In this document: piece by piece, positions 36,813-51,786 of the stretch
How positions within the stretch are numbered: position 1 is the first letter of the stretch
How the letters are laid out: each line of letters opens with the position of its first letter
From: an uncultured Acidobacteriota bacterium
GTDB lineage: Bacteria > Acidobacteriota > Thermoanaerobaculia > Multivoradales > UBA5704
NCBI GenBank assembly: GCA_963770895.1
Contig: CAVYRF010000001.1
Location: 704,481 to 768,480 of the forward strand
DNA length: 64,000 nt
Reading direction: 5' to 3'
Made by a program: the position numbers and the translations under genes
Notes under the pieces: generated by a model
Database searches by the model: none
Told to the model about the DNA's origin: nothing
Seen by the model: the letters and a program-made list of their open reading frames with translations, nothing else

Positions 36813-36819
36813 TCAAAGT

Positions 36820-37417: not shown

Positions 37418-37605
37418 TCGCCCAACCTGCCGCCGGCGTGGCTAGTGAGCCGCCTGTACCCGGCGGCCGCGGACAAGCCAGAGCTGGTCGAGGGCAGGCC
37501 CGGCGCCAGCGGTTTTGCTGGTACAGGTCCCTGGTGCCCCGGTCGTCGGGGCACCGGGCGCCCGGTGGGCGGGGTCGGCCGCGGGGCGGGGCCGGCGGCG
37601 CGGTT

Positions 37606-39227: not shown

Positions 39228-40816
39228 GCGCCAGCGTTGCCTCGGCAGGCGTGTCGGGCGCGGCGGCGGGCCGCCAGCGGGTGCTGCTGGTCAATCCGCG
39301 CATGTGCTCGCGCCGCTCGATGCGCCTGCCGCTGTCGCTGCTGTCGCTGGGTTCGGTCCTGGAAGGGCGCTACGACTACCAGCTGATCGACGGCAATGTC
39401 GATCCCGACGCCATCGGCACCGCGCTCGCCGCGCTGGCGCAAGGCGACCATGCAATGGTGGGGGTGAGCGTCATGCCGGGGCCGCAGGTGGGGCCGGCGA
39501 TCGCGCTGTCCACCGCGGTGCGCGCGCACTTCCCGCAGGTGCCGATCGCCTGGGGCGGGTACTTCCCGACCCTCTACCCGGATTCGGCGATCAACGCTTC
39601 GTACGTCGACTACGTGGTGCGCGGCCAGGGCGAAGAAACCCTGCTGGAGCTGCTGGCGCGGCTGCCCGACGCCGGGCCGCCGGCGCCGCCATCCGACTCG
39701 GCTGCCGACGCCGGCGCCCTGGCCGGCCTGGCGGGCCTGACCTTCAAGCACGACGCCGAAGTGCGGCACAACGCCGACCGCCACTTCAAGCCGCCGGACG
39801 ACCTGCCGCCGCTGCCCTACCAGCGCCTGGCCGACGTCACGCCCTACCTGCGCCCGACGTTCATGGGGGCGCGCACCGGCGTGCACCAGGCGGCCCTGGG
39901 CTGCCGCTATCGCTGCAGCTTCTGCGGCGTCGTCACGATGTTCAACGGCGTCACCCGCCTGCAGGGAGCGTCGCGCCTGGCGCAGGCGGTGACGACGCTG
40001 CGCGACAAGTACGGCGCCGACTCGATGCAGTACTACGACAACAATTTCTTCGACCGCGAAGAGAGCAGCGTGCCGCTGCTCGAAGAGCTCGCCCGCCTGC
40101 AATCGCCCTGGTGGTGCTATGCGCGCGCCGACACCATGGCGGGCTTTTCGACCCGCACCTGGGAGCTCATCCGCCAGAGCCGCATGCGCATGGCCTACAT
40201 CGGCGCCGAAGCGGGGAGCGACGCGGCGCTGCGCCAGATGAAAAAGGGGTCGCGCGTCGAAGACACGTTGGAGGTCGCGCGCCTGTGCCGCGCCTACGGC
40301 GTGGTGCCCGAGCTGTCGTTCGTGCTCGGCGGCCCCGACGATCCCGAAGGCGAGGTCGAGCACACCCTGAGCTTCATCAAGCGCATCAAGCAGATCCACC
40401 CCACCTGCGAAGTCGTGCTGTACTTCTACAGCCCGACGCCGCGGCGGGAAGCCGCGTCAGAGGCGACGCGGGCCAGCGGCCTGCGCCTGCCGGTGATGGA
40501 CAACTACGGCCCGGACGGCCCGCCGCTGCCGACGACGCCGCTCGAATGGACCGAGCGCAAGTGGATCGACTACGTGTGCCACCAGGACGCGCCCTGGCTG
40601 TCGCCGCGCCTGCGCCGCCGCGTGCGCGACTTCGCGACCGTGCTCGGCTGCCGTTTCCCGACCGTGCAGGACGCCAAGACCCCGGACTGGGGCAAGGCGA
40701 TCCTGCGCAACCTGTCCCGCTGGCGCTACAGCAGCGGCCTCTACGGCAGCCCCTGGGAGCTGGAGCTGGCCCGGCGCCTGGTGCCCTTGCGCCAGCCGCA
40801 GCGCGAAAGCCTGTGA
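39224..40816 (+). CDS. class B (cobalamin-binding-domain type) radical SAM enzyme, copy 1
   Basis: 530 aa. An N-terminal alpha/beta domain (VLLVNP...PLSLLSLGS...) is followed by GCRYRCSFC (CxxxCxxC). It is a paralogue of the 46896..48320 gene, sharing N-terminal and C-terminal motifs. Confidence 0.88.
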   Translation: MSASVASAGVSGAAAGRQRVLLVNPRMCSRRSMRLPLSLLSLGSVLEGRYDYQLIDGNVDPDAIGTALAALAQGDHAMVGVSVMPGPQVGPAIALSTAVRAHFPQVPIAWGGYFPTLYPDSAINASYVDYVVRGQGEETLLELLARLPDAGPPAPPSDSAADAGALAGLAGLTFKHDAEVRHNADRHFKPPDDLPPLPYQRLADVTPYLRPTFMGARTGVHQAALGCRYRCSFCGVVTMFNGVTRLQGASRLAQAVTTLRDKYGADSMQYYDNNFFDREESSVPLLEELARLQSPWWCYARADTMAGFSTRTWELIRQSRMRMAYIGAEAGSDAALRQMKKGSRVEDTLEVARLCRAYGVVPELSFVLGGPDDPEGEVEHTLSFIKRIKQIHPTCEVVLYFYSPTPRREAASEATRASGLRLPVMDNYGPDGPPLPTTPLEWTERKWIDYVCHQDAPWLSPRLRRRVRDFATVLGCRFPTVQDAKTPDWGKAILRNLSRWRYSSGLYGSPWELELARRLVPLRQPQRESL

Positions 40817-42537
40817 CGGACACCCAGCCCGACAGGCTGCCGGCAGCGAAGCTGCCGCTGCGGCACGGCGCCTATGCGTGGCAGACGCGCTGGCGCCCCG
40901 GCGAGCTCGCCACCGCCCGCTTCATGCCCATGGGCCTCCACCTGGAGCTGGTCACCAACAGCCCGCCCCTCCTGGCTGCCGCCCGCCAGTGCTTCGGCGG
41001 CTACGGCGAGCCGGCGCCAGACCGCCCCGTCGATCTCACCCTGAGGCTCTACCAGCACTCCGTCGACGCGCCGGCGCCAGGCGCTGGCGTCGCTACGACC
41101 GCCGCTACGTCCGGCCACCTCGCCACGGCAACGGCCGCCGCCGCCAACCCGGCCGGCACCGCCGGCCTCCCCGACCTGGCCAACACCGCCAACCCCGCCG
41201 ACCAGGGGTTCAACGGGGGCAGCGTCGCGGCGATCCACCCAGTGAGGGCGGCTGCCCTCCCGGAGGCCGGGCCGCCCGGCGCCGCCACGTCCGGCAGCTG
41301 TGTCGCCGCAACCGCCGCCGGCGCCACCCCCGGCTCCGTCGCTGCAACCGCCATCCACGCCTCGACGACCGGCAACGCCGCTGCTGCAACCGCCATCGGC
41401 GCCGCCATGTCTGGCAGCTCTAGCGCAGCAACCGCTGCCGACGCTACGACCGGCAACTCCGCTGCTGCAGCCGCCATCGGCGCCGCCATGTCTGGCAGCT
41501 CTAGCGCAGCAACCGCTGCCGACGCTACGACCGGCAACTCCGCTGCTGCAGCCGCCATCGGCGCCGCCATGTCTGGCAGCTCCGTCGCCGCAACCGCTGC
41601 CGACGCTACGACCGGCAGCTCCAGTGCCGCAACCGCTGCCGACGCTACGACCGGCAGCTCTAGTGCAGCAACCGCTGGCGACGCCACGACCGGCAGCTCC
41701 GTCGCCGCCACCTCACCTGTCGCCGCGATGGCTGGTGCCGCCGCCGGCGGCCGGGACGTGCATTTCTTTGACGGCGGCGCCGCCGGCGCGCCGCTGTCCG
41801 CGCCGATCCTGCGCTGCGAGGGTCCGTATCTCTACCAGGCCAGCGGGTCTGACACGGTGATGGTGGCCGACCGCGGCGCCGGGGTCACCTTCGGCTACCT
41901 GGCCGCAGCGACCGTGGCCGATGCAGCGCACCTCACCTGGCACTACCTGTGGCCGGCGGTTTCCTATCACCTGGAATGCCGCGGTTTTGCCGGAGTGCAC
42001 GCCGCCGCCATCGCGCGGCGAGGCCGCGGGCTGCTGCTGCGCGGCCGCAGCGGCCAGGGCAAGACGACGCTCACCTATGCGGCCACCCGTCGCGGCTGGC
42101 AGGCCGTCAGCGAAGACATCGTATGGGTGGACGCCCGCGGCGCCACCTGGTGGGGCTCGCCCTGGACCTTCCACCTGCTGCCGGACGCCCGCCAGCTCTT
42201 TTCCGAGTTGAGCGGGCGCGGCGTCGCCCTGCAGCCCAACGGCGAAGTCAAAGTGGTGGTCGACATGGAATCCCTCTGGCCCGGCAGCACCCTGCCCAAG
42301 GCCGCGGCCGGCCCGGTGGTCATCCTGGAGCGCCGCCATGGCGGCACCAGCAGCCTGGTCACCCTCGACCCGGCCACAGCGCACCACGAATGGCTGGACG
42401 GCTGCGCCCGCCACGAGCGCCAGGCCCCCGGCTACGACCAGACGGTGGCGGACCTGCTCAGCAGAGGTTGCCACCGCCTCCACCTGGGAGACGACCTGGA
42501 CGGCGCCCTGGACCTGTTGGAGCCGCTCCTGCCATGA
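40813..42537 (+). CDS. HPr-kinase-related P-loop kinase with long internal low-complexity repeat region
   Basis: GTG 40813 overlaps the upstream stop (GTGA). The C-terminal domain is GFAGVHAAAIARRGRGLLLRGRSGQGKTTLTYAATRRGWQAVSEDIVWV, which matches the HprK C-terminal-like P-loop pattern. An Ala/Thr/Ser-rich stretch of about 190 aa separates the N- and C-terminal domains. Confidence 0.7.
   Translation: MTDTQPDRLPAAKLPLRHGAYAWQTRWRPGELATARFMPMGLHLELVTNSPPLLAAARQCFGGYGEPAPDRPVDLTLRLYQHSVDAPAPGAGVATTAATSGHLATATAAAANPAGTAGLPDLANTANPADQGFNGGSVAAIHPVRAAALPEAGPPGAATSGSCVAATAAGATPGSVAATAIHASTTGNAAAATAIGAAMSGSSSAATAADATTGNSAAAAAIGAAMSGSSSAATAADATTGNSAAAAAIGAAMSGSSVAATAADATTGSSSAATAADATTGSSSAATAGDATTGSSVAATSPVAAMAGAAAGGRDVHFFDGGAAGAPLSAPILRCEGPYLYQASGSDTVMVADRGAGVTFGYLAAATVADAAHLTWHYLWPAVSYHLECRGFAGVHAAAIARRGRGLLLRGRSGQGKTTLTYAATRRGWQAVSEDIVWVDARGATWWGSPWTFHLLPDARQLFSELSGRGVALQPNGEVKVVVDMESLWPGSTLPKAAAGPVVILERRHGGTSSLVTLDPATAHHEWLDGCARHERQAPGYDQTVADLLSRGCHRLHLGDDLDGALDLLEPLLP
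41380..41703 (+). repeat. in-frame tandem repeats (81 bp x about 2.6, then 36 bp x about 3) inside the kinase gene
   Basis: Units start at 41380, 41461 and 41542 (GCTGCTGCARCCGCCATCGGCGCCGCCATGTCTGGCAGCTC...). They encode AAATAIGAAMSGSSSAATAADATTGNS, followed by AATAADATTGSS repeats. Confidence 0.85.
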
Positions 42538-43721
42538 CGCTCGAAGCAATCGCGGACCAGGAGGCTACACCGCCTGCCGCCGCCGCCGCTGCCGGCGGGT
42601 CGCCTTCCGCCGCCGTCGCCGGTGGCGAGCCGCCACCCGGCGCTGCAGGAGACGCCGGGCGTCTGGCGTGGATGTGCGAGCGGCTGGCCGTTTGGGTGGT
42701 CGCCCCGCCGCCGCAGCCGCCGCCGGCGTGGCCGGCCGCGGCGTGGGAGGACTTTCGTGCCGCCACGCAGGTCCACGGCGTCGGCCCGCTGCTGGGGCGG
42801 CGCCTGGGCGACCGCCAGCCATGGTCGCAGGCGGCAGCCTGGCTTGGCGCCGAGCATGCCGCCAACCGCTTGCGCGTCGAGCGTCTGCACCAGGACTTGC
42901 GCGCGATCCTGGCGCGCTTTGCCGCCGCGGACGTGCCGCTCATGCCGCTCAAGGGCGCGGTGCTGGGGCCGCTCTATTATTCCGACCCCGCGGAGCGGCC
43001 AATGGCCGACCTGGACCTGCTGGTGCGCGCCGAAACGCTGGCGCAGAGCGCCCAGCTGCTGGTCGACATCGGCTATGAGGTGGTCTTTGAAGGCCGCAAA
43101 CACGTCAAGCTGGCGCCGCGCGGCGGCCGTCGCCGCCCGGTCAGCGACGCCGGCGGCGCCAGCGACGGCGACGTTGGCGCCGACGCCGGTGGTAGCCCCG
43201 GCCCCGGCCCCGGCGACCACGAGGCGGCCGGCGAGCACCCCGACAACCCGCGCTGGGTCGAGCTGCATCCGGCCTGCGGCGAATGGCTGGGGGACGAGCG
43301 CATCGATCTGACCGGCCCGATCTGGGCCGGCGCCCGCCGGCAGCCGCTGCTGGGCGAGCCGGCCTGGCTGCCCGACCCGGCGACCCATTGGCTCTACCTG
43401 TTGGTGCATGCCACCCACCACATCCTGATCAATCGCTTCCGTCTCATCCAGCTGCTCGACCTGCTGCTGCTTTGCCCGACGGACCTGTTGGGCGCCGCCC
43501 TCCAGGTCGAGCCGCCCGCCGCCGCGGCCGCCATGGCGCGCGCCCTGTACCCGCCTCTCGCGCTCCTCCAACGGTACTTCCCGGCGGGCGCCACCGCCGC
43601 CGCGACGGCCCTGCGCCAGGACTTGCGCGCGCGGCTGGCGCCCGGCTACGCGGCCTGGGCCGACGGCCTGGACCTGTTCCAGGCTTGCTATCTCGACGCC
43701 GCGCCGTGGAGGGCGCCATGA
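42534..43721 (+). CDS. uncharacterised nucleotidyltransferase family protein (PF14907-like)
   Basis: ATG 42534 overlaps the upstream stop (ATGA). VPLMPLKGAVLGPLYYSDPAERPMADLDLLVR and LYLLVHATHH resemble the NTP_transf_5 family signature as I remember it. Confidence 0.7.
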   Translation: MTLEAIADQEATPPAAAAAAGGSPSAAVAGGEPPPGAAGDAGRLAWMCERLAVWVVAPPPQPPPAWPAAAWEDFRAATQVHGVGPLLGRRLGDRQPWSQAAAWLGAEHAANRLRVERLHQDLRAILARFAAADVPLMPLKGAVLGPLYYSDPAERPMADLDLLVRAETLAQSAQLLVDIGYEVVFEGRKHVKLAPRGGRRRPVSDAGGASDGDVGADAGGSPGPGPGDHEAAGEHPDNPRWVELHPACGEWLGDERIDLTGPIWAGARRQPLLGEPAWLPDPATHWLYLLVHATHHILINRFRLIQLLDLLLLCPTDLLGAALQVEPPAAAAAMARALYPPLALLQRYFPAGATAAATALRQDLRARLAPGYAAWADGLDLFQACYLDAAPWRAP

Positions 43722-45148
43722 GCGAGCCTGGCGCCGTCAGCGAGCCGGGCACCGTCGGCGAGCAGGGTGCCGTCAGCGAGCCGGGCGCCGCCAGCGAGCC
43801 GGGCACCGTCAGCGAGCAGGGCGCCGTCAGCGGGCCGGGCGCGGTCAGAGCGCGGGGCGCCGTCAGTGGGCCGCGCGGCATGAGCGGTCAAGGCGCCATG
43901 AGCGAGCGCCCGGTGGTGGTGGTGGTGGGCGACGCCGTGGCGCCCACCGGCTTCGCGCGCGTGCTGCACAGCATTCTGGGGCGGCTCGCCGACCGTTACG
44001 AGTTCCATCACCTGGGGGTCAACTACGGCGGCCAGCCGCACGAGCACGCCTGGCAGATCTATCCCGCGGACGGCGGCGGCGACCTGCACGGCGTGCGGCG
44101 CGTGCGCGACCTGGTGGAAAAGGTGCGGCCCCGCCTCGTCTTCCTGCTCAACGACCCCTGGCTGATGGGCGGCTACCTCGACGCCTTGGGCGATTGCCGC
44201 GCCGGCATCAAGGTGATCGCCTACGCGCCGGTCGACGCCGGCCCGCTGGAGGCGGAGCTGGTGGCGCCGCTCACCGGCCTGGATCACCTGGTGCTCTATA
44301 CCCGCTACGGCCTGCAGGAAATGGAGGCGTCGGCGGCGCAGCTGCGCCGCCTGCGCCCCGACGCGGCCGCCTTCCCGGCGCTGTCGGTCGTGCCGCACGG
44401 CGTCGATTCGGACCTCTTCCGCCCGCTCGCCGGCCCGCCCACGGCGGCGGCGCCCGGCGACTTTGCCGCCTCCCGCGCCGCGGCGCGCCGCCAGCTGTTC
44501 GTCGACCCGGCGCTGCACGACGCCTGGATCGTCTTGAACGCCAACCGCAACCAGCCGCGCAAGCGCATCGACGCGACGATCAAGGGCTTCGCGCTCTTTG
44601 CGCGCGACAAGCCGCCCAACGTCCGCCTCTACCTGCACATGGGGATGGTCGATTGCGGCTGGAACGTGGTCGCCCTGGCGCGCCGTCACGGCATCGAAGA
44701 CCGGCTCATCCTGACCGCCGAGGAGCACTTCCTGCCGGCGGTCGCCGACGATCTGCTCAACCAGATCTACAACGCCTGCGACGTGGGCATCAACACCTCC
44801 CTGGGCGAGGGCTGGGGCCTGGTCAACCTGGAGCACGCCGCCACCGGCGCCGCCCAGGTGGTGCCCCGCCACAGCGCCTGCGCCGAGATCTGGGACGGCG
44901 CCGCCGAGCTCGTCGAGCCCGTCGCCAGCCTCACCATGGAAGGCCTGCTGACCGAAGGCCGCCTGGTCGGCCCCGAAGGGGTCGCCCGCGCCCTCGATCG
45001 CCTGTACACCGATCCCTCCCACCTGCGCCGGCTGTCCGCCGCCGCCTACCAGGTCGCCACCCGCCCCGAATACCGCTGGGACGACGTCGCCCGCCGCTGG
45101 GACGATCTCTTCCAGCAGATGCTGGCGGCCACCCCCACTGCCGTCTGA
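43718..45148 (+). CDS. GT1/GT4-family glycosyltransferase with repeat-encoded N-terminal extension
   Basis: ATG 43718 overlaps the upstream stop (ATGA); alternative in-frame ATGs are at 43880 and 43898. The catalytic part starts at ERPVVVVVGDAV, and the GT1 core includes NTSLGEGWGLVNLEHAATGAAQVV. Confidence 0.85.
   Translation: MSEPGAVSEPGTVGEQGAVSEPGAASEPGTVSEQGAVSGPGAVRARGAVSGPRGMSGQGAMSERPVVVVVGDAVAPTGFARVLHSILGRLADRYEFHHLGVNYGGQPHEHAWQIYPADGGGDLHGVRRVRDLVEKVRPRLVFLLNDPWLMGGYLDALGDCRAGIKVIAYAPVDAGPLEAELVAPLTGLDHLVLYTRYGLQEMEASAAQLRRLRPDAAAFPALSVVPHGVDSDLFRPLAGPPTAAAPGDFAASRAAARRQLFVDPALHDAWIVLNANRNQPRKRIDATIKGFALFARDKPPNVRLYLHMGMVDCGWNVVALARRHGIEDRLILTAEEHFLPAVADDLLNQIYNACDVGINTSLGEGWGLVNLEHAATGAAQVVPRHSACAEIWDGAAELVEPVASLTMEGLLTEGRLVGPEGVARALDRLYTDPSHLRRLSAAAYQVATRPEYRWDDVARRWDDLFQQMLAATPTAV
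43721..43900 (+). repeat. 18-bp in-frame tandem repeat x about 10 at the 5' end of the GT1 gene
   Basis: Units AGCGAGCCGGGCGCCGTC (SEPGAV and variants) run from 43721. The context GCGCCATGAGCGAGC occurs at both ends, at 43714-43728 and 43894-43908. Confidence 0.85.
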
Positions 45149-45283
45149 GAAAATCGCCGTTGATCTGACCCGCTACCACCGCCCCAGACCACTAGACGTG
45201 CGATCGGGGGGCGTGGTATCTTCTAAAACAAGCAGACCAATGTCGTCCTTCGATCCTGTTTGGATGGGGGAGAGGAGGTAAGC

Positions 45284-45589
45284 GTGGCGATTACGGTTGT
45301 CAATCAGTCGGTCGGTGCTCTGTCCTATACCGTGTTCGGCGGCTCGACTTCGGGTTCGGGCACGGGCGGGTCGGGCAGCAAGGGTTCGGGAACCACGGGC
45401 TCCGGTACCCACGGCTCGGGCGGCGGCTCGGGTGTCGTGGCTTCGGGCGTCGTCGGTCCGGGTGGCACCGCGTCCGGGATCCAGGTGGGTGCAGGCTCCT
45501 ATACCGTGGTCTTCGGGTGGAAAACCTTCCCCAGCTACACGGTTTCGGCCTCGGGTGTGGTCAAGGTGACGACGACCGTCCAGCCGTAG
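45284..45589 (+). CDS. 101-aa Gly/Ser/Thr-rich small protein (candidate modification substrate or scaffold)
   Basis: GTG 45284 lies 5 nt after GGAGG (45274-45278); an alternative TTG is at 45260. The sequence is VAITVVNQSVGALSYTVFGGSTSGSGTGGSGSKGSGTTGSGTHGSGGGSGVVASGVVGPGGTASGIQVGAGSYTVVFGWKTFPSYTVSASGVVKVTTTVQP. Codon third positions are less GC-biased than in the neighbours, and an AT-richer gap precedes it. Confidence 0.6.
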   Translation: MAITVVNQSVGALSYTVFGGSTSGSGTGGSGSKGSGTTGSGTHGSGGGSGVVASGVVGPGGTASGIQVGAGSYTVVFGWKTFPSYTVSASGVVKVTTTVQP

Positions 45590-45621
45590 CGCGTTCCGAA
45601 CGGTTGCCAGCGCGGCGCGGC

Positions 45622-46656
45622 GTGTCCAGACCTTCGCTGTTCGTCGTCTCGCTGCCGCGCTCTCTTTCGACGCTGCTCTACCACGCGATCCGCCAATCGC
45701 TGGCGTTGCGTGAGCCGCAGTGGACGACGGACGGGGAGATCCTCAACGTCCGTCGCTTTGCCTTTCTGGCGGAGGAGGGCGCGGTCGAGGGGGTGCGCTA
45801 CGTCCAGCGCGATCACGACGGGCCGCGCTTCGCGAAGCTCCTGGCCTTCCTCGACCAGGTGACCCAGGCTCAAGGCTTTGCCTACAAAGACGTCATCCAG
45901 CCCTTCGTCGTCGGCGAATGGCTGGCGCGCCAGAGCGCTCCGCCGGTGGGCGTGAACCGGCCCGCTGCAGCGGCCTCCTCCTCAGCCGCTGCCGAAGGCG
46001 CCACCGCCGCTGCGGCCGCCGCCGAGCGGCGCCGCTCGGCGTCATCGCCGAACAGCCCCGCACGCCCCACACCAGCGGCGCCAGCCCCCGCGGCCGTCTC
46101 TGCCTCCAGCGCTGCGGCACCCGCCCCGCGCGTCCTGGTCATCGACCGGCCGGTGCCTGACGTGGCCGCCTCGTTGCTCGATCGCGGCTGGCTGTATCCA
46201 GCGCTGGCCGCCGACGGCGCGGCGGCGCTTCCAGAGGCCGCGCGCGCGGTGGTCGCCGGTGCCCACACCGCCGACCTGTCGGCATTCCTCCCGCCCGACC
46301 AGGTGGAACGGGCGCTGGTGTCCGGCTTGCTGCGCGCCCGCCGGACCCTGGCCCGCCTGGCGGACCCGCCCCCGGCATGCGCCAGCCGGTGGGTGGTCTA
46401 CGACCAGCTGATCCACGACGAAGCGCCCTTGCATCAGGCCTTGCAGGCGCTCTACGGCGAAGACGTCCCGCCGCCCGCCTATCTGGACGACGAGTTCTGT
46501 CGCCAGCGCGATCAGGTGCTGCGCCGCCGCGCCAGCCCGCTCTACCAGCGCCTGCAGGCGCTCAGCGACGAGCTGGCGACCACGATGCTGGCCGCGCCGC
46601 CGGCCGCCGCCATCGGCGCCGGCGTCGCCGCGGCGCCACGGCGCCGCACGCAGTAG
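45622..46656 (+). CDS. sulfotransferase-like protein (tentative)
   Basis: GTG 45622 (or TTG 45604). The N-terminal FVVSLPRSLSTLLYH resembles the PAPS 5'-phosphosulfate-binding loop (LPRSGSTLL) of bacterial sulfotransferases, but with Gly replaced by Leu. An Ala/Ser/Pro low-complexity insertion lies at about 45960-46130. Confidence 0.45.
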   Translation: MSRPSLFVVSLPRSLSTLLYHAIRQSLALREPQWTTDGEILNVRRFAFLAEEGAVEGVRYVQRDHDGPRFAKLLAFLDQVTQAQGFAYKDVIQPFVVGEWLARQSAPPVGVNRPAAAASSSAAAEGATAAAAAAERRRSASSPNSPARPTPAAPAPAAVSASSAAAPAPRVLVIDRPVPDVAASLLDRGWLYPALAADGAAALPEAARAVVAGAHTADLSAFLPPDQVERALVSGLLRARRTLARLADPPPACASRWVVYDQLIHDEAPLHQALQALYGEDVPPPAYLDDEFCRQRDQVLRRRASPLYQRLQALSDELATTMLAAPPAAAIGAGVAAAPRRRTQ

Positions 46657-46680
46657 CCACCTGCAACACGCTCCGCTCAC

Positions 46681-46861: not shown

Positions 46862-46895
46862 CCTTCGACTGGCGGCCTGAGAGGGCGCCGGCGGA

Positions 46896-48320
46896 TCAGG
46901 ACAGGCGTTGTGCCGGGCGCAGGAAGTTGGCGACCTGCTTTTCGATCGGGGCGGCGTAAAAGTCGCGGTCGCAGCGCCAGCGGGCCAGCGCGCGCAGCGG
47001 CCGGCTCCAGGGTCGGCCGGAATCCCAGGCCAGCTGCTGGAAGAATTTGAAGCGCTCGATCAGCCGGTACTTTTCGGGCGACACCCACGGACCGATCGAG
47101 CCCACGAAGTCAAATTCGCTCCATTCGTCCAGCGTGCAGGGGAGGGTGAAGCCGGCGGCCACCGCGTTCTGGGTGATCGAGGTGCCGGGATAGGGTTTGA
47201 AATAGAAAATCGGCGTCTGGAAGTCGGGGCTCATGGCGCGCAGCCGCTTGACCACCTGCAGGGTGGCGCGCACGTTGTCCTCGGTCTCTTCCGGGAAGCC
47301 GACGATGAAGGGGAAGTTGACCGCCACGCCGAACTTGCGACAGCGCTCGGCGACAAAAAAGACCTGCTCCAGCTTGATGTCTTTTTTGATGCGATCCATC
47401 ATTTCCTGCGAGCCCGATTCGACGCCGACCAGCAGGCGGCGCAGCCCCGAGCGCTTGCACTTGGCGAAGACCTCTTCGCTCATGCGCTGGCCCTGGTCGG
47501 CGCGCATGGTGGCGGCCCAGGTGATGGGGAGCTTGCGGCGGATGAGCTCTTCGGCGACCGCTTCGACGCGCTGGGCGTAGGTGAAAAAGGTTTCGTCCTG
47601 GAAGTTCACGTCGTCGTAGCGCGAGCGGTGCCACAGCGCTTCGAGCTCTTCGCCCATGCGCTCGGGCGACAGGCCGGTCCACTTGCGCTGGTAGACGAAC
47701 GGATCGGCGCAAAAGGCGCAGCGGAAAGCGCACCCCTGCGACGAGATGTAATCCAGCTGGCGCTTGCCCTTGAGGCGATAGTACGGTTCGATGTCGATCA
47801 GGCCGTAGTTGTGGACCGCCAGGGTGTTGACGTCGGCCAGCGGGCGGGCCGTGTTCACCTGCGCGGCGCCGTCCTCGCGGTAGGTGCAACCCTGGCAGCC
47901 GGTCAGTGGCCGCCCTTCAGCCAGGCGCTCGACGATCTCGGCAAAGGTGATTTCCCCCTGGCCTTGCACGGTCACGTCGACGCTCGGTTCCGCCAGGCAT
48001 TCGCGGCCGAACATCGACGGGTGCCAGCCGCCCCAGACGACCGGCAGGTCGGCGCGGCTGGCCTTGGCGGCGCGGCTGGCCGCAACCGCGTCGGCGATCG
48101 GCGCCCCGGTGAGCACCGTGACGCCCAGGCAGAGCGCGCCTTCCAGCTCCGCCACCAGGGCGCGGTGTGCCGCTTCGGGGTTTTTGGCCAACCGGGCGTC
48201 CACGACCACCACCTGGTAGCGCTCGGGATCGAGGTGCGATCCGATGGTGAGCAGCGCCAGCGGCATGGTGTAAAAGACCGCGGTCGGGTTGTACAGCACG
48301 ATTTTGTGGCGGCGACTCAT
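46896..48320 (-). CDS. class B radical SAM enzyme, copy 2 (paralogue of 39224..40816)
   Basis: 474 aa from ATG 48320, overlapping the upstream stop (ATGA). Signature lines are IVLYNP...PLALLTIGS and GCAFRCAFC. Confidence 0.9.
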   Translation of the reverse strand: MSRRHKIVLYNPTAVFYTMPLALLTIGSHLDPERYQVVVVDARLAKNPEAAHRALVAELEGALCLGVTVLTGAPIADAVAASRAAKASRADLPVVWGGWHPSMFGRECLAEPSVDVTVQGQGEITFAEIVERLAEGRPLTGCQGCTYREDGAAQVNTARPLADVNTLAVHNYGLIDIEPYYRLKGKRQLDYISSQGCAFRCAFCADPFVYQRKWTGLSPERMGEELEALWHRSRYDDVNFQDETFFTYAQRVEAVAEELIRRKLPITWAATMRADQGQRMSEEVFAKCKRSGLRRLLVGVESGSQEMMDRIKKDIKLEQVFFVAERCRKFGVAVNFPFIVGFPEETEDNVRATLQVVKRLRAMSPDFQTPIFYFKPYPGTSITQNAVAAGFTLPCTLDEWSEFDFVGSIGPWVSPEKYRLIERFKFFQQLAWDSGRPWSRPLRALARWRCDRDFYAAPIEKQVANFLRPAQRLS

Positions 48321-49399
48321 AAGGGCTCCGGGGTCAATGCCAGCGTGCAGACGCATTTGCGACAGATCGCATCGCGGTCGGTGTCCAGGCCGCGGCGCCA
48401 GGCGAGCGCCTGCGGCGAATTGACGATCGCGTCCAGGCTTGCCGCCTGCCGCAGGTTGCCGAGCGGCGGCTGGAAGAAGCACGGCCGCACCGTGCCGTCG
48501 GCTTCGATCACCGTCGACACCCACGGCGCGTTGCAGCGATGCGGCGGAAAATCGCCGTGGCCGCACAGTGCGGCGTAGTAGTCGTAGAGCCGCGCCCGCA
48601 GCTTCGCCGCGCCCTCGACGATGAAGCCGGATGCGAAGTCGGCCGCGTGCTCGCGTTCCAGGGCGTCCAGCTCGCCGGCCAGCCGCGGCAGCTCCTCTTC
48701 GAGCAGCGCCACCTGGCCGGCGCGCGCCGCTTCCCAGGGCTGCGGCCGGTTGAAGGCGTCGCTGCTGACGTCGGCGGCCAGCAGGCTCAACCAGTTCAGG
48801 CCGATCGCGCGGGCCGCCGTGACGGTGCCGCGCAGGTGGGCGAAGTTGGCCCGCTGGACGGTGCAGCGCCCGCCGATCGTCAGCTGAGGCGCGGCTTGGC
48901 GCACCGCCGCCACCCCGTCGGCCAGCTTGGCGAAAGCGCGCGGCAGGTTGCGGATGTGATCGTGCACGGGCTGCGGCCCGTCCAGGCTGACGATCACTTC
49001 GGAGCAGTAGGCGGCGACCTGGGTCGCGTCGCGCCGCAGCAGCAGACCGGTGGACAGCAGGGTGATCGCGATGCCGGCGCGCCGCAGGTGCTCGCACATC
49101 TCCCACAGGTTGCGGTGCAGCAGCGCTTCGCCGCCCGACAGCGCGACCTGGCGCACCCCCATGCGCTGCCATTCGGCAACCCACTGTGCCACCTCGGCCG
49201 CGCCCAGCTCCTGCTTGCCCGGATCGCGCCAGATGTCGCACATCAGGCAGCGGCAGTTGCAGCGGCTGTGCGGGAACAGGATGACGATCGGCAGCCGCTC
49301 GACCGGTTGGGGCCGCGGCAACCCGTCGGCCGCCCCGCCGCTCCACGCGTTGGCCGGCAGCTCGGCGGCCGGCAGCACCGGAAGCACGGTCGAGCTCAC
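48317..49399 (-). CDS. radical SAM enzyme with Cys-rich SPASM/twitch-like C-terminal domain
   Basis: 360 aa from GTG 49399, overlapping the upstream stop (GTGA). It has RCNCRCLMCDIW (CxxxCxxC). The C-terminus has CNAPW...CFF...ICRKCVC. Confidence 0.85.
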   Translation of the reverse strand: MSSTVLPVLPAAELPANAWSGGAADGLPRPQPVERLPIVILFPHSRCNCRCLMCDIWRDPGKQELGAAEVAQWVAEWQRMGVRQVALSGGEALLHRNLWEMCEHLRRAGIAITLLSTGLLLRRDATQVAAYCSEVIVSLDGPQPVHDHIRNLPRAFAKLADGVAAVRQAAPQLTIGGRCTVQRANFAHLRGTVTAARAIGLNWLSLLAADVSSDAFNRPQPWEAARAGQVALLEEELPRLAGELDALEREHAADFASGFIVEGAAKLRARLYDYYAALCGHGDFPPHRCNAPWVSTVIEADGTVRPCFFQPPLGNLRQAASLDAIVNSPQALAWRRGLDTDRDAICRKCVCTLALTPEPL

Positions 49400-50385
49400 C
49401 GCCGCTCCAACTCCAGCAGGTAATGGTCGGCCAGCCAGGGCAGCGGCGGCCAGGTTTCGGCACGCCGCTCCCAGCGCCCGAGCAGACGCAGCAGGCGCGG
49501 GTGGCGCGCCGCCCAGCCTTCGGCGTAGGTGGGCGGCAGCAGCGCGCCGACCGCCGCGCGCCGGCGCAGGCGGAAGGCGGGACCGAACAGGCGCCGCAGC
49601 GCGCCGACCGACGGATAGCGGATGGTCAGGCCGCGCCAGCGCGTGCCGCCCGGCCGCAGCCGGCGAAAGGCGCGCCCCGGCTGCGCGTGGCCCAGGTACC
49701 AGGCCCACTCCCACGGCACCAGCGGGCCCATCACGCAAACGACCGCCATGGCGCCCGGCCGCAGGTTTGCCGCCAGCCAGCCCGCCAGCTGCCGCAGGTC
49801 GGCTGGCGCCACGCAGTTGAGGCCGCCGAAGTTGGACAGCACCCCGTCGAACGGCCGCGGCGCCGCCGGTGTGGCGCCGGCAGCAGGTGCGGCAGCGGGT
49901 ACAGGCGCGGTGGCGAGTACAGACGCGACCGCGGGCATAGGCGCAGCGGCGGGTACAGACGCGGGCGCGGGTGCCGGGTCCGCCGGCGGTGATTGCTGGG
50001 GGTGCCAGGGTTGCCGGGGCTGCCGGGTCAGCTGTTCGATGGTCTGGTGGCGCAGATCGACCCGATCGCCCAGGCCGGCGCTCGCGATCTTGTCGCCGGC
50101 GCGTTCCAGCATGCCGGCGGCGGCGTCGATGGCGGTGACGCGCACGCCGCGGCGAGCCAGGTACAGGGCGTCTTCGCCGGTGCCGCAGTTGAGCTCCAGC
50201 ACGTGGCTGCCGGGGGCGAAGCAGGCGTCCAGCCGCCGCCAGACCGCCTGGCGCATCTGCGTGCCGATGGCGCTGCCGGTGAAGCTGGCGTCGTAGGACG
50301 CGGCCATGCGGTCGAACGCGGTGGCACCCGTGGCGTCGCCATCGCGGCGCGCCGGCAGCACGGGGAGGACGGCCGGTTCGGTCAT
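49396..50385 (-). CDS. class I SAM-dependent methyltransferase (paralogue of 16980..17810)
   Basis: 329 aa from ATG 50385. Motif I is VLELNCGTGEDALYLA. There is a Pro/Ala-rich insertion at about 49850-50000, and the gene ends LELERR. Confidence 0.8.
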   Translation of the reverse strand: MTEPAVLPVLPARRDGDATGATAFDRMAASYDASFTGSAIGTQMRQAVWRRLDACFAPGSHVLELNCGTGEDALYLARRGVRVTAIDAAAGMLERAGDKIASAGLGDRVDLRHQTIEQLTRQPRQPWHPQQSPPADPAPAPASVPAAAPMPAVASVLATAPVPAAAPAAGATPAAPRPFDGVLSNFGGLNCVAPADLRQLAGWLAANLRPGAMAVVCVMGPLVPWEWAWYLGHAQPGRAFRRLRPGGTRWRGLTIRYPSVGALRRLFGPAFRLRRRAAVGALLPPTYAEGWAARHPRLLRLLGRWERRAETWPPLPWLADHYLLELERR

Positions 50386-50387
50386 CG

Positions 50388-51785
50388 TCACGGCGCCGCC
50401 GGCGACTCCTCGGGCCAGGAGAGCAGCGCCTGGTGCGCCGCTTCCGCCATCTGCAGCTTTTCGGCGGCGTCCGCCGGGTTGTCGGACTGCAGGCGGGCGG
50501 CGGCGACGCTGTTGCGCAGCCACCGGTCGGCCTGTTCGTAGTAGGCGCGCGAGCGCTGGCCGCGCAGCCGGTAGTCGCGGTCGGTGGCGGTATCCCAGCT
50601 CTTGTCGAGCTGCACGCGGTCGGCCACCTGGCGGAAGTAGGCGGTGTTCTTGATCGGGTAGGCGACGGTGGTGAAGAAGATGTTGGGGTTGGCCTTTTTG
50701 ACGTGCTCGACGGTGGCTTCGATGTCGGCCAGCGTTTCGCCCTGGTAGCCCCACATCAGGAACATGCCGACTTCGATGCCGTGGCGCTGGGCGGCGTGGG
50801 TCGCCCACTGCACCTGCTCGGCGGTGACGCCCCGATCCATGGCGTCCAGGATGCGCTGGCTGCCGCTTTCAGAGCCGATCCAGATGCGGTAGCAGCCCAT
50901 TTCGGCGAGCGTCGCGATCACTTCGTCCTTGAGCAGCCGATCGGCGCGCGAAATGGTTTCGAAAGGGCGCACCAAGCCGCGCTTCTTGAGCAGGCCGGCG
51001 AACTCGAAGAGCCAGCGGTGGTGGATGGTGAACACGTCGTCGGCGTACCACAGCTGTTCGGGCTGGTAGGCTTCGACGATGTGCGCCACTTCGTCGGCGC
51101 AGTCGAGCGCGCTGCGCCGGCGATGGGTGTAGCCGAACACGGCGTGCGAGCACCATTTGCAGCGATACGGGCAGCCGCGCGCGGTGATCAGGTTGACGCT
51201 GCCCATGCCGTGGTGGGTGTGCCAAACGTCGACGTAGCGGGCGATGTCGATCTGCTCGCGATCGGGCCAGGGGAGGCTGTCCAGGTCGGCGATCTGTTCG
51301 CGGTCCGGATTGGTGACGACCTCCCCTTCTTCGTCGCGGAAGACCGTGCCGTGCAGGCCGTGCAGACGGTGCGGACCGCGCAGGGCGAGCGCCGGCAGCA
51401 GTTCCGCGAGCGTCGCTTCGCCTTCGCCCACCACCACGACGTCGGCGCCGTGGGCCAGGTATTCGGCCGGGTAGTTGGCCGATTCGGGGCCGCCGAGCAC
51501 CACCGTCCAGCCGTGCTGCCGCGCGGCGGCGATGATGGCGAGGATCGACGCGCGGGTCATCAGGTTGGTGTAGATCCCCACCACGCCGCCGGGAGTGGCG
51601 GCAAGGCGCTGGCGCAGCGCGGCGCGCTCGGCGAACGTGGAATCGAAGATCTCGACGCTGAAACCGGCGCGACGCAGATACGAAGAGATGTAGAGCAGCC
51701 CCAGCGTCGGGTAGGGCTTCATGATCTGCAGCTCTTTGGGATCTTCGTGCAGGAAGTAGCCGTGGGTCAGCAGGATGTCGGCCAT
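50388..51785 (-). CDS. class B radical SAM enzyme, copy 3
   Basis: 465-aa ORF. Signature lines are MADILLTHGYFLHEDPKELQIMKPYPTLGLLYISSYL and GCPYRCKWC. It is a paralogue of the upstream gene. Confidence 0.9.
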   Translation of the reverse strand: MADILLTHGYFLHEDPKELQIMKPYPTLGLLYISSYLRRAGFSVEIFDSTFAERAALRQRLAATPGGVVGIYTNLMTRASILAIIAAARQHGWTVVLGGPESANYPAEYLAHGADVVVVGEGEATLAELLPALALRGPHRLHGLHGTVFRDEEGEVVTNPDREQIADLDSLPWPDREQIDIARYVDVWHTHHGMGSVNLITARGCPYRCKWCSHAVFGYTHRRRSALDCADEVAHIVEAYQPEQLWYADDVFTIHHRWLFEFAGLLKKRGLVRPFETISRADRLLKDEVIATLAEMGCYRIWIGSESGSQRILDAMDRGVTAEQVQWATHAAQRHGIEVGMFLMWGYQGETLADIEATVEHVKKANPNIFFTTVAYPIKNTAYFRQVADRVQLDKSWDTATDRDYRLRGQRSRAYYEQADRWLRNSVAAARLQSDNPADAAEKLQMAEAAHQALLSWPEESPAAP

Positions 51786-51786
51786 A

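What the first reader, a model, noticed from the sequence alone, without database searches (positions are those of the whole stretch)
45149..45621. 101-aa protein with a (G-S-G-T)n hydroxyl-rich tract between SYTV beta-strand motifs: candidate substrate of the kinase/NTase/GT/sulfotransferase set
Seen: GTG 45284 lies 5 nt after GGAGG. The 135 nt upstream are the AT-richest part of the operon and hold a weak TAGACG-18-TATCTT promoter-like match at 45193-45222. Codon third positions use many T-ending codons, unlike the neighbours. The protein has three SYTV motifs (LSYTVFGG, GSYTVVFG, PSYTVSAS). These flank a 30-aa tract, STSGSGTGGSGSKGSGTTGSGTHGSGGGSG, in which 14 residues are Ser or Thr. There is no Cys and no signal peptide. 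Inference: a dense array of hydroxyl acceptors sits between a glycosyltransferase and a sulfotransferase-like gene and downstream of a Ser-kinase homologue. That placement is what one would expect for a multiply O-modified substrate. The alternative is that the tract is just another low-complexity insertion like those in neighbouring enzymes, and the core is a small beta-rich protein of about 60 aa with unrelated function.
Basis: partly seen in the sequence, partly recalled or inferred. Interest (0 to 1): 0.7.

Follow-up and report, generated by a model that had tools for sequence, protein, structure and literature searches.

The report
Ser-Gly repeat mini-protein in modification cassette
A real, conserved but unnamed 101-residue protein carries an expandable loop of Gly-Ser-Gly repeats and always sits inside the same six-gene enzyme set (kinase-like, nucleotidyltransferase-like, glycosyltransferase, B12 radical SAM, sulfotransferase-fold), so it is probably the protein those enzymes decorate, though no modification has been shown.

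Summary
The ORF at 45284-45589 is a genuine gene. It has 37 close homologues of 82-101 aa and pairwise dN/dS of 0.14-0.53. All 11 loci examined keep the same start codon and a purine-rich Shine-Dalgarno site. No Pfam, NCBIfam or PADLOC family matches it. An exhaustive HMM search of 1.84 billion representatives found only 19 hits.

AlphaFold gives a generic seven-strand Ig-like/transthyretin-like beta-sandwich of moderate confidence. Residues 22-48 form a disordered loop. That loop is present across the family and is built of tandem G-S-G-x-x units, from about 2 to 12 copies. It is therefore not a lineage-specific low-complexity insert, unlike the inserts in the neighbouring enzymes.

Every locus with enough flank has the fixed order B12-rSAM, HprK-like P-loop protein, PF14907 nucleotidyltransferase, GT4, small protein, sulfotransferase-fold protein.

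Published work on pseudomycoidin and the LPP peptides shows that HprK-like kinases phosphorylate Ser on ribosomal peptides. It also shows that a nucleotidyltransferase-family protein (PsmN) is needed to add hexose onto that phosphate.

Best reading (confidence about 0.45): a folded scaffold presenting a multi-site Ser acceptor array for phospho-glycosylation and further decoration.

Main rival (about 0.3): a non-substrate accessory protein of a glycan or small-molecule pathway.

No chemistry has been demonstrated.

The parts
45149..45283 (+). AT-rich 135-nt leader upstream of the small gene, carrying the Shine-Dalgarno site GGAGG at 45274-45278. The TAGACG-18-TATCTT promoter-like match at 45193-45222 is weak.
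   Evidence: GC is 0.56, the lowest in the operon. The promoter scan found nothing at its threshold. The predicted RNA fold is only marginal, z = -1.96. A purine-rich SD 5-10 nt upstream of the start is present in all 11 loci examined.
45284..45589 (+). Gene for the 101-aa Ser-Gly repeat mini-protein (GTG start, TAG stop).
   Evidence: Translation. 37 homologues and alignment A1. dN/dS 0.14-0.53. No Pfam, NCBIfam or PADLOC family.
45284..45343 (+). N-terminal conserved beta-hairpin, residues 1-20: (M/V)AITxVNQSV...Y(T/S)xFGG.
   Evidence: Invariant I3, T4, N7, Q8, S9, V10, Y15, F18, G19, G20. AlphaFold strands 2-7 and 13-19 with pLDDT 72-76.
45344..45433 (+). Disordered tandem (G-S-G-x-x)n loop, residues 21-50. 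This copy has six GSG cores.
   Evidence: pLDDT below 50 for residues 22-48. Loop length and copy number vary across the family, from about 2 to 12 GSG. GSG is enriched 160 observed against 63 expected, and 80% of loop Ser are followed by Gly. Only a weak 15-nt DNA periodicity here, 73% matches.
45434..45586 (+). C-terminal conserved five-strand part of the beta-sandwich, residues 51-101: ASGV..., (Y/F)TVVFxW, PxYxVSxSG.
39224..40816 (+). B12-binding radical SAM enzyme, first gene of the six-gene core that is conserved in all loci.
   Evidence: PF02310 and PF04055. All NCBIfam hits are far below their cutoffs. Same position in all loci.
40813..42537 (+). HprK-like P-loop protein (putative Ser kinase). 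It carries a roughly 240-aa low-complexity insert at about 41100-41830 that is specific to this lineage.
   Evidence: Hpr_kinase_C E = 0.0016. HprK_rel_B, HprK_rel_A and ScmC hits at E 1e-7 to 2e-4, all below cutoff. Invariant GxGK(S/T)T and ED motifs (A3).
42534..43721 (+). PF14907 nucleotidyltransferase-fold protein.
   Evidence: PF14907 E = 8e-31, 107.9 bits against a cutoff of 31.2. Invariant KG...RPMADLD motif.
43718..45148 (+). GT4-family glycosyltransferase, immediately upstream of the small gene.
   Evidence: PF13692 and PF00534 above cutoff. The best PDB sequence match of the L001 orthologue is chlorovirus GT4 B736L, E = 5.6e-10.
45622..46656 (+). Sulfotransferase-fold / P-loop-kinase-fold protein, immediately downstream of the small gene. 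It has a lineage-specific low-complexity insert at about 45960-46060.
38469..39227 (+). HemK/MTS-type SAM methyltransferase, first gene of the 4-nt-overlap operon. A class I methyltransferase occupies this position in most loci but is of a different type (UbiE-like) in group B.
   Evidence: PF05175 E = 4.8e-16. Operon overlaps. Group B annotation.
46896..53367 (-). Convergent five-gene operon: three B12 radical SAM enzymes, one radical SAM/SPASM enzyme and one methyltransferase. It is found only in the group A loci and is probably a separate RiPP pathway.
   Evidence: Pfam. Present in L001 and L011 but absent from group B loci. In L001 and L011 it is accompanied by Cys-rich leader-type peptides.

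Best explanation
The small protein is the dedicated substrate of the cassette. It would be a ribosomally made scaffold of about 60 folded residues forming an Ig-like beta-sandwich. This scaffold stands in for a leader peptide as the recognition handle. Between strands 2 and 3 it displays a disordered, evolutionarily expandable array of G-S-G-x-x units.

Inferred order of events:
1. The HprK-like P-loop enzyme phosphorylates the Ser of the GSG units.
2. The PF14907 enzyme adds a hexose (or a nucleotide) to the phosphate.
3. The GT4 extends the glycan.
4. The sulfotransferase-fold protein, the B12 radical SAM enzyme and the methyltransferase decorate the glycan or the peptide.

The product would be a small, polyanionic, phosphodiester-linked glycoprotein.

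Shown here: the gene is real and selected; the loop is family-wide and repeat-built; the gene is tightly linked to the cassette; the P-loop and nucleotidyltransferase motifs are intact.

Shown elsewhere, on other peptides: HprK-like kinases phosphorylate Ser of ribosomal peptides, and PsmN (described as a putative NTP transferase of an uncharacterised nucleotidyltransferase family) is required for hexose addition onto that phosphate.

Inferred only: that this protein is the acceptor, which residues are modified, the order of steps, and every chemical detail.
For: 1. Strict linkage. All 11 distinct loci with enough flank show B12-rSAM, HprK-like, PF14907, GT4, small protein, sulfotransferase-fold on one strand in the same order. 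These are the window, L001, L002, L003, L005, L006, L008, L011, L014, L015 and L021. Shorter contigs always show GT4 upstream and the sulfotransferase-fold gene downstream.

2. Reverse test. Among 63 loci found with the kinase profile, only close orthologues (E below 1e-120) belong to the cassette. The one of these with downstream sequence (L021) carries the small gene.

3. The small protein is the only non-enzyme in the conserved core.

4. The loop looks like a tandem array of acceptor sites.
- GSG cores are conserved while the spacers vary in length and chemistry (GSGTG, GSGTN, PSGSGVI, GSGVGSSK).
- Copy number runs from about 2 to 12.
- GSG is 2.5-fold enriched over composition shuffles.
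- L021 carries a recent 15-nt expansion, 6.7 copies at 90% identity.

5. The flanking sandwich is far more conserved than the loop, with 28 invariant columns. This is expected if several enzymes must recognise it.

6. Catalytic motifs are intact: GxGK(S/T)T and ED in the kinase-like protein, and KG...DLD in the PF14907 protein.

7. Precedent in the literature.
- PsmK phosphorylates Ser, and PsmN is required for hexose on the phosphate (PMC6993621).
- LppK polyphosphorylates Ser3 of a 45-aa core, with an uncharacterised NTP transferase in the same conserved gene set (PMC13381572).

8. Expression signals. A strong SD is conserved in all loci examined, and in this window the gene has its own AT-rich leader.
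Against: - No modification has been observed.
- The protein lacks a leader/core layout. Both ends are conserved and it is predicted to fold, although the model is only moderately confident (mean pLDDT 61.5, pTM 0.53).
- No RRE/PqqD domain, leader peptidase or exporter is conserved with the cassette.
- Known HprK-like peptide kinases stack phosphates on a single Ser rather than modifying many sites.
- Distant homologues of the kinase-like protein lie among polysaccharide-export and sugar genes without any such protein.
- Distant homologues of the sulfotransferase-fold protein also occur outside the cassette.
- Similarity of the kinase-like protein to HprK families is confined to the P-loop region and is below every curated cutoff.
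- A Gly/Ser-rich loop could simply be a flexible tether.
Confidence: 0.45

Rival explanations
1. The small protein is an accessory, non-substrate component. The cassette builds a non-protein glycoconjugate or small molecule, such as a phosphorylated, methylated or sulfated sugar, lipid or nucleoside derivative. The beta-sandwich would then be an adaptor, product-binding, regulatory or chaperone subunit, and its Gly/Ser loop merely a flexible lid or tether.
For: - Distant HprK-like homologues sit with a Wza-like exporter, GT1, amidohydrolase, methyltransferase, B12-rSAM and GTP cyclohydrolase II, and have no small-protein homologue.
- Distant sulfotransferase-fold homologues lie next to SIS, epimerase, GT2 and LPG-synthase genes.
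- Group B loci add further GT4, GT2 and FkbM-type methyltransferases and a DedA/VTT protein weakly like the undecaprenyl-phosphate transporter UptA.
- No peptidase, RRE or exporter is present.
- The fold resembles carbohydrate-binding and adhesin beta-sandwiches.
Against: - A passive tether would not be expected to keep phase-locked GSG cores while the spacers change, nor to expand to 12 units.
- The loop lies within a single domain, not between domains.
- The small protein is lost in every context where the enzymes have diverged, which fits a substrate-enzyme pairing at least as well.
Confidence: 0.3
2. The small protein is a self-assembling structural protein. The N-terminal hairpin, tethered by the flexible Gly/Ser linker, would insert into the incomplete sandwich of a neighbouring subunit by domain or strand swapping. 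This would build fibres or a matrix, which the adjacent enzymes may or may not glycosylate.
For: - The best structural neighbours are pilins, adhesin CnaB-type domains and transthyretin-like folds.
- The linker separates a two-strand hairpin from a five-strand body.
- The profile weakly matches Ig-like repeats of large bacterial surface proteins.
Against: - There is no signal peptide, sortase motif, usher or secretion gene in the conserved core.
- This reading does not explain the conserved GSG cores or the strict linkage to a kinase-like and a nucleotidyltransferase gene.
Confidence: 0.1
3. In this subgroup the cassette tailors a conventional Cys-rich leader-type RiPP peptide, and the Ser-Gly protein is not the target.
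For: - L001 encodes MKKSVKKLVLHRESLRLL... immediately upstream of the methyltransferase gene.
- L011 encodes MKRNKPRKIVLNRETLRPLEV... between the GT4 gene and the small gene.
- A similar ORF lies at window 18960-19084.
- In lasso and LPP clusters the HprK-like kinase and the nucleotidyltransferase are tailoring enzymes for such peptides.
Against: - No such peptide is encoded in any group B locus, yet the cassette and the Ser-Gly protein are intact there.
- In this window the nearest such ORF is 26 kb away.
- These peptides co-vary with the group A radical SAM/SPASM operon, not with the cassette.
Confidence: 0.07
4. The ORF is a spurious product of a GC-rich, low-complexity stretch, or the tract is a lineage-specific insert with no function.
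For: This genome inserts low-complexity tracts into many enzymes, and high-GC DNA yields many long chance ORFs.
Against: - 37 homologues share the same start and stop.
- dN/dS is 0.14-0.53, and L002 against L003 shows four synonymous and no non-synonymous differences.
- The SD is conserved.
- The loop is present in every member across two cassette architectures.
Confidence: 0.01

Closest known systems
Tailoring of ribosomal peptides by an HprK-like kinase plus a nucleotidyltransferase-family protein: paeninodin/pseudomycoidin-type lasso peptides and linear polyphosphorylated peptides (LPPs)
   Same: An HprK-superfamily P-loop protein and a nucleotidyltransferase-family protein (PF14907 here) are encoded next to a small ribosomal product that has candidate Ser acceptors. 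Glycosyltransferases lie nearby. The chemistry has precedent: Ser phosphorylation followed by hexose on the phosphate (PMC6993621, PMC13381572).
   Different: - No RRE, no B2 or SpI-type leader peptidase, no macrolactam synthetase and no ABC exporter are conserved here.
- There is no YxxP/WxxP leader motif.
- The candidate substrate is a predicted folded beta-sandwich with many internal acceptor units, not a leader-core peptide with one terminal or near-terminal Ser.
- The kinase-like protein matches HprK models only around the P-loop and below cutoffs.
- A B12 radical SAM enzyme and a sulfotransferase-fold protein are obligatory partners.
- The taxa differ: Acidobacteriota MAGs here, against Bacillota for the LPP BGCs.
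NCBIfam HprK-related kinase A/B systems and the SynChlorMet cassette protein ScmC (TIGR04352, TIGR04355, TIGR04249; PF27840)
   Same: These are the best-scoring curated families for the kinase-like protein. From my own recollection of the model descriptions, not checked here, they are uncharacterised HprK-like proteins placed in putative peptide-modification cassettes.
   Different: Scores are 21-35 bits against cutoffs of 125-200 bits. No PqqD homologue is encoded in the cassette. I recall PqqD and paired SPASM radical SAM genes as the hallmarks of those systems, but that recollection was not checked here.
Serine-rich repeat glycoproteins of Gram-positive bacteria, modified by the GtfA/GtfB GT4 pair (own knowledge, not tested)
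   Same: A cytoplasmic GT4-family enzyme is encoded beside a protein with a disordered Ser-rich repeat region.
   Different: Those proteins are very large, have signal peptides and LPXTG anchors, and use an accessory Sec system. They have no kinase, nucleotidyltransferase, radical SAM or sulfotransferase-fold partner. Their repeat unit is different.
Eukaryotic Ser-Gly and phospho-Ser glycoconjugates: serglycin-type proteoglycan cores, Leishmania proteophosphoglycans (own knowledge, functional analogy only)
   Same: Tandem Ser-Gly or Ser-rich units serve as multiple glycan attachment sites. In proteophosphoglycans the sugar is linked through a phosphodiester to Ser. In proteoglycans the glycan is sulfated.
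   Different: There is no homology. The enzymes and cell compartment are entirely different. This is an analogy for how the system might work, not a claim of membership.
PAPS-dependent sulfotransferases (olefin-synthase ST domain, TPST1/2, mycobacterial Stf enzymes), for the downstream partner only

Membership tests
RiPP precursor tailored by an HprK-like kinase and a nucleotidyltransferase (lasso/LPP type) | An HprK-like kinase is encoded in the cluster | tested here: inconclusive
   The P-loop region matches Hpr_kinase_C (E = 0.0016) and HprK_rel_A/B (E 1e-7 to 1e-8), but far below curated cutoffs. The Walker A and ED motifs are invariant. No significant match to solved HprK structures: E = 0.24 for the window protein alone and 0.77 for the A3 profile.
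RiPP precursor tailored by an HprK-like kinase and a nucleotidyltransferase (lasso/LPP type) | A PF14907 nucleotidyltransferase is encoded in the cluster | tested here: met
   PF14907 at 107.9 bits against a cutoff of 31.2. KG...DLD motif invariant. That the published PsmN/LppN proteins belong to PF14907 is my own assumption; the papers call them uncharacterised NTP transferases.
RiPP precursor tailored by an HprK-like kinase and a nucleotidyltransferase (lasso/LPP type) | A discrete or fused RRE (PqqD-like) domain that binds a leader motif | tested here: not met
   No PqqD/RRE hit in any cassette protein of the window or in the precomputed Pfam annotation of the related loci. A cryptic RRE inside the kinase N-terminal domain was not excluded structurally.
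RiPP precursor tailored by an HprK-like kinase and a nucleotidyltransferase (lasso/LPP type) | Leader-core architecture with a conserved leader (YxxP/WxxP) and a variable core, plus a leader peptidase and an exporter | tested here: not met
   Both termini are conserved and only the internal loop varies. There is no YxxP motif. No peptidase or ABC exporter is conserved across loci.
RiPP precursor tailored by an HprK-like kinase and a nucleotidyltransferase (lasso/LPP type) | The peptide is actually phosphorylated or glycosylated | not testable with these tools
   This needs mass spectrometry or an in vitro assay.
HprK-related kinase A/B and ScmC families (NCBIfam) | Score at or above the curated cutoff of the family model | tested here: not met
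   Scores are 21-35 bits against cutoffs of 125-200 bits.
PAPS sulfotransferase superfamily (downstream partner) | Sulfotransferase fold | tested here: met
PAPS sulfotransferase superfamily (downstream partner) | Canonical 5'-PSB loop (PKxGTT / PRSG[ST]T) and 3'-PB motif, with a sequence-model match | tested here: inconclusive
Ig-like / prealbumin-like beta-sandwich domains (fold of the small protein) | Seven-strand sandwich topology | tested here: inconclusive
Known anti-phage defence systems | A match to a PADLOC model | tested here: not met
   Only two marginal hits, AbiEii at E = 3e-4 and an orphan methyltransferase at E = 2e-4.

The most novel reading that the evidence does not exclude
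This would be a new kind of ribosomal natural product, or bacterial glycoprotein. A folded Ig-like mini-protein, rather than a leader peptide, presents an evolutionarily expandable tandem array of Gly-Ser-Gly acceptor sites. These sites would be iteratively phosphorylated, phosphoglycosylated, sulfated (or further phosphorylated) and radical-methylated. The result would be in effect a bacterial 'proteophosphoglycan', with copy number of the acceptor unit tuning the load. A further speculative layer is a role of the polyanionic array in cation binding, suggested by the MntR/MntH genes beside the group A loci. That link is weak. The TonB receptor of group B looks most like a B12 receptor, which would simply feed the B12 enzyme.
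Probability: 0.2. Interest if true: 0.8.

Novelty: new variant of a known kind. Interest (0 to 1): 0.6.

Why it matters
If the small protein is the acceptor, the cassette would extend the HprK-kinase plus nucleotidyltransferase tailoring logic. That logic is known only from lasso peptides and the recently described linear polyphosphorylated peptides. The extension would be to a folded scaffold with many equivalent sites, in poorly studied Acidobacteriota.

It would give a compact, genetically defined system of six genes and a substrate of about 90 residues. That system could be used to work out what PF14907 enzymes really transfer, which is still unresolved in the published systems. It could also assign functions to an unassigned B12 radical SAM subfamily and to a divergent sulfotransferase-fold family.

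A natural tandem array of acceptor sites with tunable copy number could also be useful for engineering multiply phosphorylated or glycosylated tags.

If instead the protein is only an accessory subunit, the finding is still an unannotated, tightly linked family that marks a new biosynthetic cassette.

Tried and rejected
- Family scans. Pfam, NCBIfam and PADLOC scans of the small protein gave nothing useful. Neither did Pfam scans of all 38 family members at E up to 1.
- PDB sequence searches. The kinase-like, nucleotidyltransferase and sulfotransferase-fold proteins gave no significant match. Only the GT4 matched, weakly, chlorovirus B736L.
- Promoter and terminator scan around the gene. No site reached threshold.
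- RNA structure. The folds of the upstream leader and the downstream spacer were not convincing, z = -1.96 and +1.40.
- Rfam scan of seven related loci. No hit, so there is no cobalamin riboswitch or other known RNA in them. The window itself was never scanned; the one call that included it failed on the size limit.
- MntR/DtxR operator. I looked for a conserved palindrome in the divergent promoter region shared by the window, L001 and L011. None was found. L001 and L011 share a block that the window does not clearly keep.
- Metal link. MntR plus MntH form a self-contained Mn-uptake pair. The group B TonB receptor best matches the B12 receptor model. I therefore down-weighted a metallophore reading.
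- Literature. Searches for PF14907, SynChlorMet, HprK-like kinases and Acidobacteria RiPPs found nothing describing this family.
- Source organism. It could not be named. The identical proteins sit on a 2.24-Mb NCBI contig without an organism label in the tools. Relatives come from Acidobacteriota and Thermoanaerobaculia MAGs.
- AlphaFold database fold search. The library was not available.
- Complex prediction with the kinase-like protein was not possible with the tools.
- Tyr sulfation of the conserved SYTV tyrosines, prompted by the TPST-like fold of the downstream protein, was considered and set aside. Those Tyr lie in predicted strands and lack any acidic context.
Full report
**The observation**

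- GGAGG lies at 45274-45278, followed by 5 nt and then GTG at 45284.
- The ORF 45284-45589 translates to the 101-residue protein quoted. It has the three SYTV motifs, no Cys, and a 30-residue tract holding 14 Ser/Thr and 14 Gly.
- The 135-nt region upstream has GC 0.56 against 0.73 for the operon. It contains the lowest-GC 135-nt window of the whole operon.
- T-ending codons make up 18% of this gene against 3-9% in the five neighbours.
- The TAGACG-18-TATCTT match exists, but it is 8 of 12 consensus positions. A consensus scan reported no promoter or terminator in 44900-47000.

**Gene map**

GC3 frame plots and start-codon inspection give one operon whose genes overlap by 4 nt.

| Coordinates | Product |
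|---|---|
| 38469-39227 | HemK/MTS-type methyltransferase |
| 39224-40816 | B12-binding radical SAM |
| 40813-42537 | HprK-like P-loop protein |
| 42534-43721 | PF14907 nucleotidyltransferase |
| 43718-45148 | GT4 glycosyltransferase |
| 45149-45283 | 135-nt gap |
| 45284-45589 | the small gene |
| 45590-45621 | 32-nt gap |
| 45622-46656 | 344-aa protein with no family hit |

A convergent operon at 53367-46896 encodes three B12 radical SAM enzymes, a radical SAM/SPASM enzyme and a methyltransferase. Upstream lie MntH (35403-36812, minus strand), a VOC-family protein, and an MntR/DtxR-type regulator (37606-38271, minus strand) that is divergent from the operon.

**Is it a real gene?**

Yes.
- A search of 5.8 billion proteins returned 37 homologues of 82-101 aa, with E-values from 2e-47 to 4e-14. 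All are unannotated.
- They align end to end, with 28 invariant columns concentrated at the two ends (A1).
- Pairwise dN/dS over ten loci is 0.14-0.53.
- Two contigs that encode the identical protein differ by four substitutions, all synonymous.
- In all 11 loci examined the start codon is at the same position and is preceded by a purine-rich Shine-Dalgarno site.
- The family is rare. A filter-free HMM search of 1.84 billion cluster representatives gave 19 hits. Several of these are large surface proteins whose Ig-like repeats match weakly.
- No Pfam, NCBIfam or PADLOC model matches any member.

**Anatomy of the protein**

AlphaFold2 with the 38-sequence alignment predicts seven strands: 2-7, 13-19, 50-57, 62-67, 72-77, 84-88 and 91-95. 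The strands have pLDDT 65-78. Residues 22-48 fall below 50. Overall the model has mean pLDDT 61.5 and pTM 0.53.

The disordered segment is the informative part.
- It is present in every member but varies in length.
- It is built of tandem units with a conserved G-S-G core and variable spacers. Examples are GSGTG, GSGTN, GSGSK, PSGSGVI and GSGVGSSK.
- The metagenomic member in L021 has 12 GSG cores in a 129-aa protein. They are encoded by a 15-nt DNA repeat with 6.7 copies at 90% identity.
- The window's array of six cores shows only 73% DNA periodicity, so it is older and is kept at the protein level.
- Across the family, GSG occurs 160 times in the loops against 63 expected from composition-preserving shuffles. 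80% of loop Ser are followed by Gly. The sequences are related, so this is descriptive and not an independent test.

The inserts in the kinase-like protein (about 240 aa) and in the downstream protein (about 35 aa) are unique to this window's lineage. The GSG loop is family-wide.

**Context in other genomes**

In every locus with enough flanking DNA the order is B12-rSAM, HprK-like, PF14907, GT4, small gene, downstream protein, all on one strand. This holds for the window, L001, L002, L003, L005, L006, L008, L011, L014, L015 and L021. Short contigs always show GT4 before and the downstream protein after the small gene.

Two architectures exist.
- Group A (window, L001, L011) has MntR and MntH upstream and the convergent radical SAM operon downstream.
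- Group B (L002, L003, L005, L006, L008) has a TonB-dependent receptor and a DedA/VTT protein downstream, and extra GT4, GT2 and FkbM-type methyltransferase genes upstream. L014 and L015, the MAGs labelled Acidobacteriota and Thermoanaerobaculia, carry the six-gene core, but their flanks were not annotated.

For the reverse test, a metagenome scan with a profile of the kinase-like protein returned 63 loci. Only the three close orthologues (E below 1e-120) belong to the cassette. The one with downstream sequence carries the small gene. The 60 distant homologues (24-41% identity) do not.

**The partners**

*Kinase-like protein.* It keeps an invariant GxGK(S/T)T Walker A motif and an ED pair. It resembles HprK families only around the P-loop and far below curated cutoffs.

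*PF14907 protein.* It scores well above the Pfam cutoff and keeps an invariant KG...RPMADLD motif.

*Broader families.* More distant members of the downstream protein's family occur outside the cassette, once beside sugar and lipid genes. One distant kinase homologue (L048) lies among a Wza-like exporter, GT1, amidohydrolase, methyltransferases, a B12-rSAM and GTP cyclohydrolase II. These enzyme superfamilies are thus not restricted to peptide substrates.

**Precedent**

In the pseudomycoidin lasso cluster the HprK-type kinase PsmK phosphorylates the C-terminal Ser. PsmN, annotated there as an uncharacterised NTP transferase, is required to add one or two hexoses onto the phosphate (PMC6993621).

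A 2026 paper defines linear polyphosphorylated peptides. Their conserved gene set is an RRE, an SpI-type peptidase, an HprK-like kinase, an uncharacterised NTP transferase and an exporter. LppK places several phosphates on Ser3 of the core. The role of the transferase remained unresolved (PMC13381572).

No paper found describes the present family.

**Most likely mechanism**

I commit to the substrate reading at about 0.45.
- The sandwich is the recognition handle.
- The (G-S-G-x-x)n loop is a multi-site acceptor.
- The HprK-like enzyme phosphorylates the Ser residues.
- The PF14907 enzyme and the GT4 build a phosphodiester-linked glycan.
- The sulfotransferase-fold protein, the B12 radical SAM enzyme and the methyltransferase decorate it.

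Shown here: the reality of the gene, its selection, the repeat anatomy, the strict linkage and the intact motifs. Shown elsewhere: the Ser-phosphate-hexose chemistry on other peptides. Inferred: everything about this protein being the acceptor.

Against this reading:
- There is no RRE, peptidase or exporter.
- The layout is not leader-core.
- Known peptide kinases of this type stack phosphates on one Ser rather than modifying many sites.
- The enzyme superfamilies also occur in sugar pathways.

**Rivals**

1. An accessory, non-substrate subunit of a glycan or small-molecule pathway (about 0.3).
2. A strand-swapping structural protein (about 0.1).
3. In group A only, the cassette tailors Cys-rich leader-type peptides. 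These are found in L001 (3613-3777), in L011 (9675-9866) and, 26 kb away, in the window (18960-19084). No group B locus has such a peptide, and they track the radical SAM/SPASM operon rather than the cassette (about 0.07).
4. A spurious ORF. This is effectively excluded.

**Metal link**

MntR and MntH form a self-contained Mn-uptake pair that is conserved beside group A loci. No shared operator could be found. The group B TonB receptor best matches the B12 receptor model, below cutoff. That would simply supply the B12 enzyme. No riboswitch was detected in the related loci. I therefore treat a metal-related function as speculation only.

**Verdict**

The family is unannotated, rare and tightly bound to a distinctive six-gene cassette.

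Measured against known systems, it is best placed as a new variant of HprK-kinase/nucleotidyltransferase tailoring of ribosomal products. It has three unusual features: a folded scaffold, a tandem acceptor array, and obligatory B12-rSAM and sulfotransferase-fold partners.

Interest is 0.6. It would be higher if mass spectrometry shows multi-site modification.

Noticed in passing
window 18960-19084 (+): A small ORF, MKKTLIKIRRETLIPLEDQSTWRIAVVGATGKCPSINIGCNQ, has a leader of the type seen in many RiPP precursors and two Cys in a short core. It lies just after a membrane TlpA/redoxin-like gene (17878-18837). Similar leader-type Cys-rich ORFs sit inside the related loci: L001 3613-3777 and L011 9675-9866.
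   Followed up: partly
window 22101-34448 (+): A single 4115-aa ORF encodes a three-module non-ribosomal peptide synthetase: 4 condensation, 3 adenylation and 4 carrier domains plus a terminal thioesterase. It ends about 1 kb before the MntH gene.
   Followed up: partly
window ~41100-41830 (kinase-like gene); ~45960-46060 (sulfotransferase-fold gene); 43718-43900 (GT4 N-terminus); 49396-50385 (-); 54913-56049 (-); 56828-58531 (-): This genome inserts long low-complexity tracts into otherwise conserved enzymes. Examples are a roughly 240-aa Ala/Thr/Ser/Gly repeat in the kinase-like protein, SEPGAV repeats in the GT4, Pro/Ala tracts in a methyltransferase, (AVEPxP)n in a hexapeptide transferase and a GGGS-rich tract in another GT4. 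Orthologues in other loci lack them. They disturb the GC3 frame plot around 41300-41600.
   Followed up: partly
window 46896-53367 (-); L001 11262-20244; L011 11012-20261: A convergent operon of three B12 radical SAM enzymes, one radical SAM/SPASM enzyme and a methyltransferase occurs only in the group A loci. In L001 it is joined by a 2OG-Fe(II) oxygenase weakly like the cyclophane-peptide enzyme YhhC and by a polysaccharide pyruvyl transferase. In L011 it is joined by a trypsin-like protease. It looks like a separate RiPP pathway whose precursor is not adjacent in this window.
   Followed up: partly
L037-L054 (for example L048 6707-17781): Distant HprK-like homologues (24-30% identity) recur in a different conserved neighbourhood: a Wza-like polysaccharide exporter, a GT1 (UDPGT-type), an amidohydrolase, two methyltransferases, a B12 radical SAM enzyme and GTP cyclohydrolase II. 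This appears to be an uncharacterised pathway of its own.
   Followed up: partly
window 35403-38271; L001 1153-3390; L011 1-3598: An MntH (NRAMP) and MntR/DtxR-type regulator pair lies directly upstream of the cassette in all three group A loci, with the regulator divergent from the cassette operon. No shared operator-like palindrome was found in the divergent region.
   Followed up: partly
L002 10999-13518; L005 10996-13649; L006 10990-13590; L008 14860-17552: In group B a TonB-dependent receptor that best matches the vitamin B12 receptor model (below cutoff) and a DedA/VTT protein weakly like the undecaprenyl-phosphate transporter UptA follow the cassette. No cobalamin riboswitch was detected.
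   Followed up: partly
L015 4695-4925: The Thermoanaerobaculia MAG copy of the small protein lacks the (Y/F)TVVFxW...PxY segment (77 aa, an internal deletion of about 13 residues). P0038 (61 aa) lacks almost the whole loop. These may be assembly errors, decaying copies or tolerated variants.
   Followed up: no
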